The translations under genes were made by a program, and so were the position numbers. Positions 24,730 through 26,039 of a stretch of 64,000 nt of DNA are shown one piece after another; positions within the stretch are counted from its first letter, which is position 1, and each line of letters begins with the position of its first letter. The notes under the pieces are model-generated. The model saw nothing but the letters and a program-made list of their open reading frames with translations. It had not been told where the DNA came from and did no database searches. Origin of the DNA: a plasmid; NCBI RefSeq assembly GCF_056746865.1, contig NZ_JBWKMP010000003.1; one strand, given 5' to 3'.

Positions 24730-26039
24730 GATTATGTAGTTAACTTAACATAGAATTTTTCGTGCTGGTGGGGAGCTTCCCATGTCGCTTGCGGGTTTGA
24801 TAGTCACTTCATTGTCTTTCCCCACCAGCATCAAACAAATTTAAGTGTTAGAAAGTAAATTTTAAGGTAAGGGAAAGCTCCGGCACCGTGCAAATACATG
24901 CCCGGCAGGTTTAGTGCGTAAAGTGGTTTCAGCGAGAGCATTTTACGGAGTAAACGACAGTGACTTGAGCCACGGAAGGTCTTTTTATGGTGTTCATTGA
25001 TGATGATCTGGCAGTGAGTATGTTAAGTGGGCCAGGCTGCATCGGGTCATCATCAGTGCACATCCTCAACGTTAAGGAGGCGCAGAGTTGGGTTTTCCTC
25101 TTATTTTGCTGACTCTGAGTCTCCTTAACGTTGCGGTAATGCACCTATGCGGATGTGGCCTTGCATTGTGTCTTGAAAGAATGGGGTAAGGCCGGGGATA
25201 TCCCCAGGGGGAGGCACCCCCGCTGCAACGAACAGCCACAGACGGCAGTCGAGTGATGGAAACGTGCAAAGACTTTAAACCTCGTTACGGCTGGCGTGGC
25301 AAACGCGACAACCGAGACAGAGCGGTGACGGGCGGAGAGAGAGCCGCTTCAAGATAAAAGCCGACTATGGATTCCTTTCTGCGGGCCTTTGAAAGTGAAT
25401 CTTGCTCAGGCAGTCGGCTTTTATGTTGATACGTAGCGATAACCGCGACAGGCGCGGCGGTAAGTATGGCGGGGTTATTCCTTCCCCGTTGAGGACACCG
25501 AGTTGCCAGGTTGACCATACGCCTAAGTGGCAATACCGCGAGTGGGATATTTGCCCACCTTCGGGTGGGTGTTTTTTCAGTGTTTTCGTCATGGTTAGCG
25601 ACTTTGCGGCGGTTTAGAACCCGACCATTAAAGTAAATGCAAACGATGATCTGATGATGGTAGCGGCCTAAGAAGCCTGACGCCACGGGGTATGAGTCGT
25701 CCCCCGTCAAAAAAATCGACCGCAGAGTGTCCCCGTCTGTGTATTAGGGAACGGGGAGGCATAACAGGCAAGGGCGCTGGTGTGATTAACCAGATGAATG
25801 AGAAGGGTCAGGTCTTTCTGGTCAGCGCCCTTACCTGTTACGTCCCTCCCGCGTAACAGCCATTGGTTAATGGCTTTCTGGGATAATGTCTTGTAACGGG
25901 TATATCCCGTCATGCTGAAGGCGCTAATCACGCTGGAAGCCAGGGTTATGCATCCCCTGTTACCGAATTGCAGCCAGGGCGCGGTGCGCCGAAAAGCATA
26001 CGGAGGTGGAAGCCCTCGCCGGAGACGTACCCGGCAAGT
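24730..26039 (+). other. ORF-poor, hairpin-dense ~1.3 kb segment upstream of the tRNA cluster (candidate structured ncRNA or long tRNA-operon leader)
   Basis: Multiple long perfect or near-perfect inverted repeats (e.g. gctggtgggga...tccccaccagc; caacgttaaggag...ctccttaacgttg; caggcaagggcgctg...cagcgcccttacctg); no convincing ORF with RBS; terminator-like hairpin at 25553-25577. Confidence 0.4.
25553..25577 (+). terminator. Terminator-like UUCG-tetraloop hairpin with T-run
   Basis: gcccacc-ttcg-ggtgggt then g + tttttt. Confidence 0.5.

What the first reader, a model, noticed from the sequence alone, without database searches (positions are those of the whole stretch)
24730..26039. About 1.3 kb of hairpin-dense, ORF-poor sequence directly upstream of the tRNA cluster
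The stretch holds many long, nearly perfect inverted repeats (11-15 bp stems), including a UUCG-tetraloop terminator-like hairpin at 25553-25577, and no ORF with a convincing RBS. The density is higher than in ordinary intergenic DNA. It could be a large structured ncRNA, a processed leader of the tRNA operon, or degenerate remnants of mobile DNA.
Basis: seen in the sequence. Interest (0 to 1): 0.6.

Follow-up and report, generated by a model that had tools for sequence, protein, structure and literature searches.

The report
Phage tag RNA aimed at tmRNA
The hairpin-rich stretch is the non-coding leader of a repressor-controlled phage tRNA operon, and its most conserved 190 bases belong to a widespread, unannotated phage RNA family that carries a tmRNA-style degradation-tag message and a long arm complementary to the host's own tmRNA, but no tRNA-like part.

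Summary
Window 24694-26039 folds far better than shuffles (z -7.7), holds 6 of the window's 22 longest inverted repeats, includes the UUCG hairpin plus T-run, and has no conserved protein gene.

It is not one large RNA. It is the modular leader of a P1/D6-type early operon. A C1-like operator pair and promoter sit at 24692-24756, followed by long hairpins, a module shared with dicF loci, a terminator-like hairpin, and then tRNAs.

The core, 25578-25768, is new. It has a 45-nt arm complementary to E. coli tmRNA nt 56-108 (39 bp, -48 kcal/mol, z about 6). An A-rich linker and resume codon identical to those of genuine two-piece tmRNAs follow. Next is a 10-codon tag frame (ANDDLMMVAA-stop) under peptide-level selection, then two pseudoknots with strong covariation.

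No tRNA-like domain was found. Homologs occur in 282 phage records, none annotated as RNA. A model built without P1-type sequences hits only this site (E 1e-26).

Inferred, not shown: the RNA pairs with host tmRNA and substitutes its own tag template.

The parts
24692..24729 (.). Pair of inverted operator-like sites (consensus RTGTTAGAAAATTAAT), placed directly after the pmgS-like stop. It has the same arrangement as the C1 operator pair Op72ab at the P1 ban promoter.
   Evidence: The motif occurs 19 times in the window against 3.8 expected (0/100 shuffles). It often forms inverted pairs 22 nt apart.
24728..24756 (+). Sigma-70-like promoter, TTGATT-17-TAGAAT. Its -35 element overlaps the right operator half.
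   Evidence: It is the only promoter-like site in 24500-27100. Its sequence is conserved in D6-type relatives.
24843..24861 (+). Third, single operator-like site, downstream of the predicted transcription start.
24758..24835 (+). Hairpin with 17-nt arms.
   Evidence: z -3.95
24984..25069 (+). Hairpin with 23-nt arms.
   Evidence: z -3.5
25051..25149 (+). Largest hairpin (38-nt arms, -49 kcal/mol). It sequesters AAGGAGG (25075-25081) and the start of the 33-aa ORF at 25088-25189. One relative carries the top of the hairpin inverted.
   Evidence: z -7.3.
25231..25345 (+). Conserved non-coding module. Its core at 25283-25303, GCTGGCGTGGCAAACGCGACA, is also found in 64 viral contigs (many of them ~40-kb contigs) and, in the two relatives checked, lies upstream of a tRNA.
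   Evidence: An in-frame stop and indels exclude coding.
25349..25429 (+). Hairpin with 18-nt arms and compensatory changes against D6.
   Evidence: z -5.3
25434..25540 (+). Module about 91% identical to the ~98 nt that lie immediately upstream of DicF in lambdoid phages. It corresponds to P1's annotated 'dicF-like region'. The DicF body itself is absent, and D6-type elements lack the module.
25552..25580 (+). GC-rich UUCG-tetraloop hairpin plus T6, resembling an intrinsic terminator. It sits immediately 5' of the tag RNA, and every family member inspected has some hairpin at this position.
25581..25627 (+). Arm complementary to host tmRNA nt 56-108, which cover the 3' half of pseudoknot 1, the linker, the resume codon and codons 2-5.
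   Evidence: Local alignment z 5.9-6.5, 0/300 shuffles. RNAduplex gives -48.4 kcal/mol and 39 bp. The arm is not self-structured. Complementarity is conserved in 17 diverse relatives and absent from genuine two-piece tmRNAs.
25628..25638 (+). A-rich linker UUAAAGUAAAU before the resume codon. The 17-mer UAAAUGCAAACGAUGAU is identical to the one in ARAGORN-called permuted tmRNAs.
25639..25671 (+). Tag reading frame: GCA AAC GAT GAT CTG ATG ATG GTA GCG GCC TAA = ANDDLMMVAA-stop.
   Evidence: 21 nucleotide versions give 9 peptides. The stop is always codon 11. Synonymous/nonsynonymous codon differences are 293/525 in this frame against 46/885 and 125/851 in the other frames. Residues 5-10 are 97% hydrophobic.
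25685..25720 (+). Pseudoknot A. Stem 1 is 25685-25690 with 25702-25707. Stem 2 is 25696-25699 with 25717-25720.
25721..25757 (+). Pseudoknot B. Stem 1 is 25721-25725 with 25737-25741. Stem 2 is 25730-25736 with 25751-25757.
25753..25849 (+). Long hairpin unit with 27-nt arms and stem motif ACAGGCAAGGGCG. Its 5' arm can alternatively pair with 25945-25957.
   Evidence: z -5.2. Units with the same stem motif flank tag RNAs and tRNAs in other phages.
25850..26039 (+). Remaining leader up to tRNA-Asn. 25850-25904 is variable. 25905-26039 is nearly invariant in P1 and D6 types. Its function is unassigned and it is not more structured than chance.

Best explanation
The stretch is the untranslated 5' part of a prophage-repressor-controlled early operon. 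This operon is the D6-type counterpart of the P1 ban operon, and it is transcribed rightwards into the tRNA genes. It is a chain of separate RNA modules punctuated by long hairpins.

The functional core, 25578-25768, is a roughly 190-nt RNA derived from tmRNA. It keeps the message half: the resume-codon context, a 10-codon degradation-tag frame and two pseudoknots. It has lost the tRNA-like half. In place of pseudoknot 1 it carries a 45-nt single-stranded arm complementary to the host tmRNA around the host's resume codon.

Proposed mechanism (inferred):
- After derepression, the RNA is released from the operon transcript.
- Its arm pairs with host tmRNA. This masks the host tag template and forms a helix where pseudoknot 1 normally sits.
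- The phage resume codon, 12 nt beyond that helix, is then used by ribosomes rescued by the host tRNA-like domain and SmpB.
- Rescued proteins therefore receive ANDDLMMVAA instead of ANDENYALAA.

The long hairpins (>=20 bp) most likely serve as processing or stability punctuation between the RNAs. RNase III is the obvious candidate enzyme.

Shown: family membership, arm complementarity, peptide-level selection on the tag frame, the pseudoknots, lack of a detectable tRNA-like domain, and the operator/promoter context.

Inferred: transcription and processing, pairing in vivo, and use of the phage tag.
For: Context:
- The window is a D6/P1-type phage-plasmid. In P1 the homologous leader lies between Pban with its C1 operators and trnA.
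- The operator motif is enriched 5-fold. An inverted pair overlaps the only promoter-like site.
- Relatives carry different tRNA sets behind the same leader.

Core:
- 25581-25720 is invariant in 11 P1/D6-type leaders whose flanking genes are only 84-90% identical.
- Rfam's tmRNA_permuted model aligns the resume/tag region below threshold: 24 bits here, and 29-45 bits in relatives.
- The resume 17-mer retrieves both this family and ARAGORN-confirmed permuted tmRNAs.
- The tag frame has a fixed length, a hydrophobic-xAA end and an excess of synonymous change.
- Two H-type pseudoknots are supported. 92.9% of cells pair, 12 of 19 pairs show double-sided changes, and the covariation score is 0.36 against 0.18 (0/500 shuffles). 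Slid controls pair at 33-57%. All 33 representatives form both knots, and 0/132 shuffles reach the observed score.
- Abundant G.U pairs and co-orientation with tRNAs point to the + strand.
- Arm against E. coli ssrA: z 5.9-6.5. Relatives give z 3-8.8 and duplex energies of -40 to -51 kcal/mol. Four genuine permuted tmRNAs give z about 0.
- The arm and tag region is not self-structured.
- A covariance model built from 31 non-P1 members hits the window once, at 25573-25777, with 103.9 bits and E 1e-26.
- 282 phage records carry the element, and none annotates it as an RNA.
Against: - There are no expression data, so transcription, RNA ends and stability are unknown.
- The terminator-like hairpin at 25552-25580 lies between the promoter and the core, so read-through or a second promoter is required.
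- A whole-window BLAST of ssrA did not single out the arm above shuffles. The arm became significant only when the family-conserved block was tested on its own, a partly post hoc choice, although it was then replicated in 17 relatives.
- Arm complementarity could be an inherited trace of an inverted ssrA fragment rather than a selected function. All enteric hosts share the same target sequence, so arm/host covariation could not be tested.
- The subfamily that includes an Aeromonas phage pairs poorly with E. coli tmRNA (z 1.4-2.5), and that host's tmRNA was not available.
- No precedent is known to me for a tag template supplied in trans to a one-piece tmRNA.
- tRNA-like hairpin units near the element might provide an acceptor domain that my tools do not recognise.
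Confidence: 0.55

Rival explanations
1. It is a complete but very divergent two-piece tmRNA. The acceptor (tRNA-like) piece would be supplied in cis by a neighbouring element of the same transcript. Candidates are one of the tRNA-like hairpin units (such as 26190-26290, which has a T-arm GGGUUCGAAUCCC on an 18-bp acceptor-like stem), the dicF-type module, or an adjacent tRNA. Host tmRNA would not be needed.
For: - The family almost always sits in tRNA arrays.
- In L171, Rfam's permuted-tmRNA model reaches 44.6 bits (threshold 47) by borrowing the T-arm of the upstream tRNA.
- tRNA-like units with a canonical T-loop directly follow the pseudoknots in L140 and occur between tRNA-Thr and tRNA-Ser here. 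Their acceptor-like stem shows compensatory changes.
- A hairpin sits where permuted tmRNA genes have '3' acceptor strand-CCA-spacer-5' acceptor strand'.
Against: - ARAGORN finds no tmRNA in the window or in any of the 15 family loci scanned, while it calls all six genuine permuted genes retrieved with the same 17-mer.
- The hairpin at 25554-25572 is closed by UUCG, has no CCA and has no T-arm upstream.
- The tRNA-like units have U3.G70, not the G3.U70 that alanyl-tRNA synthetase needs (read from the sequence). They are not at a fixed position relative to the tag RNA.
- Sense similarity of the arm to the tRNA-like 5' part or pseudoknot 1 of permuted tmRNAs is nil (z about 0).
- This rival does not explain the arm's complementarity to host tmRNA.
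Confidence: 0.2
2. It is purely an antisense inhibitor or sponge of host tmRNA. It would block the host's resume codon and shut down or modulate trans-translation during phage growth. The tag-like frame would not be translated.
For: - The arm's complementarity is strong and conserved.
- A phage-borne tmRNA fragment that inhibits host tmRNA is already known: the tRNA-like-domain-only gene of mycobacteriophage DS6A (PMC4131195, PMC11915505).
Against: The tag frame shows features an untranslated spacer should not show:
- invariant length
- a stop always at codon 11
- GCN at codon 10 with all four third bases
- invariant second-position T in hydrophobic codons
- a 6-fold and a 4-fold higher synonymous share than in the two other frames
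- two covarying pseudoknots downstream, as in tmRNA.
Confidence: 0.12
3. The stretch is protein-coding after all. The candidates are small proteins: the 33-aa hydrophobic peptide at 25088-25189, which has a sequestered strong ribosome-binding site and looks like a type I toxin, and the minus-strand ORF 25707-25931 that matches phrog_27020.
For: - The 33-aa frame is open in all ten D6-type leaders, with AAGGAGG 7-11 nt upstream of a TTG in seven of them.
- phrog_27020 matches the minus-strand ORF at E 2.5e-48.
Against: - The minus-strand ORF is missing in 38 of 69 distinct relatives, including P1, and elsewhere has other lengths and frames.
- The other ORFs are broken by indels or stops.
- For the 33-aa frame, the conserved C-terminal half shows no synonymous variation to judge by. 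The N-terminus is destroyed by the natural inversion in L004, and the C-terminus changes in L003 and L009.
- No NCBIfam family matches any of the ten ORFs; in PHROGs the only matches are phrog_27020 (to the minus-strand ORF) and a weak one (E 0.0074) to the 25402-25614 ORF.
- At most this rival explains one hairpin, not the region.
Confidence: 0.1
4. It is one large ornate structured RNA (GOLLD/ROOL-like), or else functionless debris of decayed tRNA or mobile-element DNA.
For: - It sits next to phage tRNAs, as GOLLD and ROOL do (my own knowledge).
- The overall folding z-score is very strong.
- Hairpin units with similar stems recur, and one of them contains a decayed tRNA-like core.
Against: - No Rfam hit, even at E <= 10.
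- The modules have independent phylogenetic distributions, and whole blocks are present or absent in close relatives.
- The core is under strong selection, so it is not debris.
Confidence: 0.03

Closest known systems
Two-piece (circularly permuted) tmRNA, coding piece (Rfam RF04321/RF01849-51), including phage-borne copies such as that of methylophage Melnitz
   Same: - Identical 17-nt resume context, UAAAUGCAAACGAUGAU.
- The tag begins ANDD and ends in hydrophobic-AA followed by a stop.
- H-type pseudoknots follow the tag.
- It is phage-borne and lies next to tRNAs.
- It is probably released from a longer precursor (PMC9004378).
   Different: - No acceptor stem, T-arm or CCA.
- No pseudoknot 1.
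- Only two pseudoknots.
- A 45-nt arm complementary to the host's one-piece tmRNA sits where the tRNA-like 5' half and pseudoknot 1 would be.
- Scores fall below the Rfam threshold, and ARAGORN does not call it.
Mycobacteriophage DS6A tmRNA fragment (tRNA-like domain only, no tag frame)
   Same: A phage carries half of a tmRNA. A similar tRNA-like-domain-only molecule is reported to inhibit the host's tmRNA strongly (PMC4131195, PMC11915505).
   Different: It is the mirror image. DS6A keeps the tRNA-like half and is thought to titrate SmpB. This family keeps the message half and would act by RNA-RNA pairing.
DicF sRNA locus of lambdoid prophages (Rfam RF00039), and P1's annotated 'dicF-like region'
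   Same: Window 25443-25539 is about 91% identical to the ~98 nt just upstream of DicF, between the ydfC-like gene and dicB. The sequence downstream of DicF (the STnc100-like dicB leader) reappears at 26577-26714.
   Different: The DicF body itself is absent. There is no RF00039 hit in the window or in P1, against 76.7 bits in the lambdoid loci. D6-type relatives lack the module altogether.
Phage-encoded anti-sRNAs or RNA sponges (for example AgvB/AsxR of EHEC prophages; from my own knowledge, not checked here)
   Same: A prophage RNA that base-pairs with a host regulatory or stable RNA to redirect its activity.
   Different: The target would be tmRNA, not an Hfq sRNA. The RNA also carries a translatable tag frame and pseudoknots.

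Membership tests
tmRNA (standard or permuted) | tRNA-like domain: acceptor stem with G3.U70, T-arm, 3' CCA | tested here: not met
   - ARAGORN finds no tmRNA in the window or in the 15 family loci scanned, but calls six genuine permuted genes.
- Rfam scores are 24 bits here (threshold 47) and at most 44.6 in relatives, and the best of those borrows a real tRNA.
- The hairpin at 25554-25572 has a UUCG loop and no CCA.
tmRNA (standard or permuted) | Resume codon in an A-rich context, followed by a short tag frame ending in hydrophobic-Ala-Ala and a stop | tested here: met
   GCA at 25639, ANDDLMMVAA-TAA. The 17-mer is identical to that of confirmed permuted tmRNAs. Selection acts at the peptide level.
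tmRNA (standard or permuted) | Pseudoknot 1 upstream of the resume codon and pseudoknots downstream of the tag | tested here: inconclusive
   Two downstream pseudoknots have strong covariation. There is no upstream pseudoknot: the upstream block is unstructured and shows no significant sense similarity to the sequence upstream of the tag, which includes PK1, in genuine permuted tmRNAs.
tmRNA (standard or permuted) | Alanylation, SmpB binding, trans-translation activity | not testable with these tools
   Requires biochemistry.
New phage 'tag RNA' family (defined here) | Anti-tmRNA arm, linker with resume codon, 10-codon tag and two pseudoknots, recognised by a covariance model built without the query lineage | tested here: met
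   Model R1 (31 sequences, with the window and P1 excluded) gives a single hit at 25573-25777 (+), 103.9 bits, E 1.1e-26.
DicF (RF00039) | The 52-nt DicF RNA with its two stem-loops | tested here: not met
   No hit at E <= 1 in the window or P1, against 76.7 bits in lambdoid loci. Only the upstream flank is shared.
Large ornate RNAs (GOLLD, ROOL, HEARO, OLE) | Match to the family covariance model | tested here: not met
   No match at E <= 1 (23000-28500) or E <= 10 (25380-26120), and none at gathering thresholds over the whole window.
P1-type C1-controlled operon (ban operon leader) | Repressor operator pair overlapping a sigma-70 promoter, followed by the leader, tRNAs and downstream genes | tested here: met
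   Operator-motif enrichment and the inverted pair at 24692-24729 overlapping TTGATT-17-TAGAAT. There is 89% homology to the P1 leader from 25434 onward. Repressor binding itself was not testable.

The most novel reading that the evidence does not exclude
Many phages of enterobacteria carry a small RNA that hijacks the host's ribosome-rescue system by RNA-RNA pairing. The carriers include P1/P7/D6, SSU5-like plasmids, Ackermannviridae, the N4-like G7C group and several siphovirus groups. The RNA docks onto host tmRNA with a 45-nt arm, masks the host tag template, and offers its own resume codon and tag. The result is a hybrid, three-strand tmRNA that re-labels every rescued protein with a phage-chosen tail. 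This would be the first natural case of a tag template supplied in trans, and the first viral reprogramming of trans-translation.
Probability: 0.4. Interest if true: 0.95.

Novelty: new variant of a known kind. Interest (0 to 1): 0.85.

Why it matters
P1 has been a laboratory workhorse for about 70 years, yet the roughly 460 nt between its 'dicF-like region' and trnA carry no annotation. This work places a conserved RNA gene there (P1 NC_005856, about 68883-69073; tag frame 68944-68976). The same gene occurs in 282 sequenced phages from several unrelated groups.

It is the missing counterpart of the known tRNA-like-only phage tmRNA fragment. Its arm gives a concrete, testable way for a virus to take over trans-translation rather than merely carry a spare tmRNA.

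If the tag swap is real:
- It changes how phage tRNA islands are read: as kits that repair or re-program host translation.
- It offers a natural design for programmable tagging of stalled-ribosome products.
- It shows that current tmRNA finders miss a whole class of tmRNA derivatives.

Even if only the antisense part is functional, this would be the first natural antisense regulator of tmRNA that I know of.

Tried and rejected
- Rfam at permissive thresholds over the region and at gathering thresholds over the whole window. Only tRNAs, C4, c4-a1b1 and isrK passed. There was no DicF, GOLLD or ROOL.
- RNAalifold on 69 P1/D6-type sequences. The long-range result was uninformative because diversity was too low.
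- A sliding RNAduplex scan of tmRNA against the whole window timed out.
- A whole-window BLAST of ssrA ranked the arm first, but shuffles scored as high. The arm was then retested as a defined block with controls.
- The idea that UUCGUCAUGG and the preceding hairpin are a decayed tRNA-like 5' half. Sense alignments to six permuted tmRNAs gave z about 0, so I dropped it.
- The idea that the dicF-type module (CGGGG-9 nt-CCCCG, UUGAGGAC, ACC) is a decayed T-arm/acceptor. There is no matching 5' strand, no similarity to the ssrA 3' end, and the module is absent from D6. I dropped it.
- The 8-codon ORF (ATG GTT AGC...TAG) and the alternative frame ATG CAA ACG ATG ATC TGA. Their length and sequence are not conserved.
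- The minus-strand ORF matching phrog_27020 is spurious.
- The ORFs at 25253-25357 and 25692-25856 are broken in relatives.
- Literature searches for a P1 tmRNA-like RNA, for antisense regulation of tmRNA, and for P1 non-coding transcripts found nothing relevant. The Lobocka 2004 P1 genome paper is not held.
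Full report
**What the window is**

The region matches Escherichia phage D6 over most of its length (92% of the 24601-26290 query, 90% identity) and P1, P7, SJ46 and RCS47 from 25434 onward (about 89%). Upstream lies a PmgS-like gene (23485-24693). Downstream lie tRNA-Asn, Thr, Ser(UGA) and a CAU tRNA. In P1 the homologous DNA starts right after the C1-controlled ban promoters and operators (Op72ab). It contains an annotated 'dicF-like region', then about 460 unannotated bases, then trnA.

**Checking the observation**

The stretch 24694-26039 folds at -521.6 kcal/mol against -452.7 +/- 9.0 for shuffles (z -7.7; minus strand z -8.4). Six of the 22 longest inverted repeats of the 64-kb window lie in it, and the five longest all lie in 24.98-26.58 kb. 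Five hairpins individually beat shuffles, with z from -3.5 to -7.3. The UUCG hairpin plus T6 is real and is the only + strand terminator-like site.

Two qualifications apply. A 120-nt sliding scan shows only moderate enrichment. Three sub-stretches are no more structured than chance.

**Coding potential**

Ten ORFs gave no NCBIfam hit. One minus-strand ORF (25707-25931) matches phrog_27020. That ORF is absent from 38 of 69 distinct relatives, including P1, and elsewhere changes frame and length, so it is an artefact of ORF calling. ORFs at 25253-25357 and 25692-25856 are interrupted by stops or indels in relatives.

The exception is a 33-aa hydrophobic frame at 25088-25189. It has a TTG start 7 nt after AAGGAGG, and both are buried in the largest hairpin. 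The frame is open in all ten D6-type leaders, but it is damaged at one end or the other in three of them. I leave it unresolved.

**Regulatory context**

The motif GTGTTAGAAA (one mismatch allowed) occurs 19 times in the window against 3.8 expected. It often forms inverted pairs 22 nt apart, and its extended consensus is RTGTTAGAAAATTAAT. One pair (24692-24729) sits directly after the pmgS-like stop. It overlaps the -35 of the only promoter-like site, TTGATT-17-TAGAAT at 24728-24756. A third copy lies at 24845.

This mirrors the divalent C1 operator on the P1 ban promoter. I therefore read the stretch as the leader of a repressor-controlled operon. Repressor binding is inferred.

**Modular make-up**

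An alignment of eleven leaders and database searches show blocks with different histories:
- 24730-25433 exists only in D6-type elements, at 74-84% identity. Its hairpin stems carry compensatory changes. In one plasmid the top of the largest hairpin is an exact inversion.
- A conserved core (25283-25303) recurs in 64 viral contigs, many of them ~40-kb contigs, and in the two relatives checked it lies upstream of a tRNA. It matches no Rfam family.
- 25434-25540 is shared with P1 and, at 91%, with the ~98 nt immediately upstream of DicF in lambdoid phages. DicF itself is missing here and in P1. D6 lacks the block.
- The sequence downstream of DicF in lambdoids reappears at 26577-26714, so the tRNA island looks as if it was inserted into a dicF-dicB-type locus.
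- Relatives carry different tRNA sets behind the same leader.

**The core**

25581-25720 is invariant in all eleven leaders, although flanking genes differ by 10-16%. A distant copy in Klebsiella phage-plasmids, also upstream of tRNAs, revealed a reading frame. Here it reads GCA AAC GAT GAT CTG ATG ATG GTA GCG GCC TAA (ANDDLMMVAA). There it reads ...GTA GTT CTG ATG GCG GCT TAA (ANDDVVLMAA). The E. coli tmRNA tag is ANDENYALAA.

Rfam's permuted-tmRNA model aligns exactly this part below threshold. Searching viral contigs with the 17-mer UAAAUGCAAACGAUGAU returned two groups. One consists of genuine permuted tmRNAs, called by ARAGORN, with 12-26-aa tags. The other is a large family with 10-aa tags that ARAGORN does not call.

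In that family, 21 nucleotide versions from 177 loci encode 9 peptides:
- The stop is always codon 11.
- Codon 10 is GCN with all four third bases.
- Residues 5-10 are 97% hydrophobic.
- Synonymous/nonsynonymous differences are 293/525 in this frame, against 46/885 and 125/851 in the other two frames.

The frame is therefore under selection as a peptide. There is no in-frame start codon between the upstream stop (25615-25617) and GCA, as read from the sequence. Entry by trans-translation is thus the natural reading.

**Pseudoknots**

Downstream of the tag, every one of 33 non-redundant members can form two H-type pseudoknots. The four stems have 11, 7, 7 and 12 different complementary versions, and no shuffle reaches the observed score (0/132).

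On a plain MAFFT alignment, 92.9% of cells pair and 12 of 19 pairs change on both sides. The covariation score is 0.36 against 0.18 in shuffles (0/500), and slid controls pair at 33-57%. Frequent G.U pairs and constant co-orientation with tRNAs identify the + strand as the RNA.

**The arm**

The 50 nt upstream of the linker are highly conserved in sequence but unstructured (z -0.5). They show no significant sense similarity to the tRNA-like 5' half or pseudoknot 1 of permuted tmRNAs (z about 0).

They are, however, complementary to E. coli tmRNA nt 57-104. That stretch covers the 3' half of pseudoknot 1, the linker, the resume codon and codons 2-5. The alignment score is 18 against 8.9 +/- 1.5 for shuffles, with 0/300 reaching it. 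The predicted duplex has 39 bp and -48.4 kcal/mol.

Seventeen diverse enterobacterial-phage members share this property (z 3-8.8; -40 to -51 kcal/mol). Four genuine permuted tmRNAs do not. A subfamily that includes an Aeromonas phage does so only weakly against the E. coli sequence. An earlier whole-window BLAST could not separate the arm from noise. The significance therefore rests on testing the conserved block and on replication across relatives.

**No tRNA-like domain**

ARAGORN and Rfam find none. The hairpin that sits where a permuted gene has its acceptor stem is closed by UUCG and followed by a T-run. In L171 the Rfam model reaches 44.6 bits only by borrowing a real tRNA's T-arm.

tRNA-like hairpin units do occur nearby. 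Window 26190-26290 has a canonical T-loop on an 18-bp stem, and a homolog directly follows the pseudoknots in L140. They carry U3.G70 rather than G3.U70. A cis acceptor therefore remains a rival, not the favoured reading.

**Family membership and spread**

A covariance model built from 31 members, excluding the window and P1, hits the window once, at 25573-25777 (+), with 103.9 bits and E 1e-26. BLAST finds the element in 282 phage records. These include P1/P7/D6, Ackermannviridae, the N4-like G7C group, several ~47-49-kb siphoviruses, and Cronobacter, Aeromonas and Vibrio phages. All are annotated 'none' or 'hypothetical protein'.

Two tmRNA database papers report phage tmRNAs mainly from mycobacteriophages (plus Bacillus phage G) and do not mention P1. 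Phage-borne two-piece tmRNAs are known from marine phages. I found no report of this RNA.

**Mechanism**

Shown: a tmRNA-derived message half under selection, an arm able to pair with host tmRNA, and no acceptor half.

Inferred: the arm invades host tmRNA from its single-stranded resume region. This replaces pseudoknot 1 with an intermolecular helix and leaves the phage linker and resume codon 12 nt beyond that helix. This is the same spacing as pseudoknot 1 to resume codon in E. coli, as read from the ssrA sequence. Rescued ribosomes would then copy the phage tag.

The long hairpins (arms of 17-38 nt, with related stem motifs at 25066, 25763, 26196 and 26472) probably punctuate the transcript for processing or stability.

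The terminator-like hairpin upstream of the core means read-through, or an unrecognised promoter, is needed. In P1 the annotated ban promoters lie upstream of the homologous hairpin and ban lies downstream of it; that ban is in fact expressed from them is from my own knowledge, not checked here.

**Verdict**

The substantive result is a new, widespread, tmRNA-derived phage RNA whose anatomy points to hijacking of host trans-translation.

Noticed in passing
window 26040-26972, and loci L002-L011: The tRNA set behind the conserved leader differs between close relatives. The first tRNA is Asn or Arg(UCU), Tyr may or may not be present, followed by Thr, with or without Ser(UGA) and a CAU tRNA. This suggests cassette-like exchange of tRNA genes between constant spacer modules.
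   Followed up: partly
L004:2430-3704, homolog of window 25075-25125: In plasmid NZ_CP058619 the loop and upper stem of the largest hairpin are the exact reverse complement of the D6 version. This is a DNA flip between the inverted-repeat arms. It preserves the hairpin but destroys the start of the 33-aa ORF.
   Followed up: partly
window 25088-25189 (+): A 33-aa hydrophobic ORF, MGFPLILLTLSLLNVAVMHLCGCGLALCLERMG. It has a TTG start and a strong AAGGAGG, both sequestered in a -49 kcal/mol hairpin. The frame is open in all ten D6-type leaders. Its architecture resembles a type I toxin, but I could not decide whether it is coding.
   Followed up: partly
window 26190-26290 (+): A tRNA-like unit between tRNA-Thr and tRNA-Ser. 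It has a canonical T-arm (GGGUUCGAAUCCC), one further arm, and an 18-bp extended acceptor-like stem with a conserved U.G at position 3:70. ARAGORN and Rfam do not call it. A homolog with compensatory changes directly follows the tag RNA in L140.
   Followed up: partly
window 25066, 25763, 26196 and 26472 (hairpins 25051-25149, 25753-25849, 26193-26285, 26466-26583): Four long hairpins share a related stem motif: AACGTTAAGGAG, ACAGGCAAGGGCG, ACAGGTAAGGGTA and AACGTTAAGAGTA. Units with the same motif flank tag RNAs and tRNAs in unrelated phages. They may be processing punctuation or scars of cassette exchange.
   Followed up: partly
window 26577-26714 (+): A sub-threshold STnc100 match (40.8 bits, threshold 47). 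The stretch is homologous to the sequence between DicF and dicB in lambdoid phages. Together with 25434-25540, this suggests the tag RNA and tRNAs were inserted into a dicF-dicB-type locus in place of DicF.
   Followed up: partly
window 25231-25345 (core 25283-25303): A separate conserved non-coding module that occurs in 64 viral contigs (many ~40 kb), a Pantoea plasmid and a Klebsiella phage of the genus Uetakevirus. In the two relatives checked it lies upstream of a tRNA. A downstream hairpin keeps a GAGAGA loop while its stem changes. No Rfam family matches it.
   Followed up: partly
window 25753-25765 with 25834-25849 or 25945-25957: The segment GGGGAGGCATAAC can pair with a near partner or a far partner. 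A T-to-C change in P1 is matched by A-to-G changes in both partners, which hints at two alternative conformations in the pre-tRNA leader.
   Followed up: no
window 11292-53999 (19 sites): The operator-like motif RTGTTAGAAAATTAAT is spread over the window, with further inverted pairs at 28380/28402, 48270/48292 and 53346/53368. It is probably the D6-type C1 repressor regulon map.
   Followed up: partly
window 12598-12804 and 54545-54755: Rfam finds two C4 antisense RNA copies (12719, 54668), a c4-a1b1 target (12598) and isrK (54545). That amounts to two immunity-type C4 loci in one element.
   Followed up: no
window 25707-25931 (-): PHROG family phrog_27020 ('unknown function') matches this ORF at E 2.5e-48. 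The ORF is absent from most relatives, so the family appears to be built on spurious calls over conserved RNA-coding DNA.
   Followed up: yes
window 25296-25312: GTGGCAAACGCGACAAC resembles the tmRNA resume region GTCGCAAACGACGAAAAC (15 of 18). It could be chance, or an internal partner for the anti-tmRNA arm.
   Followed up: no
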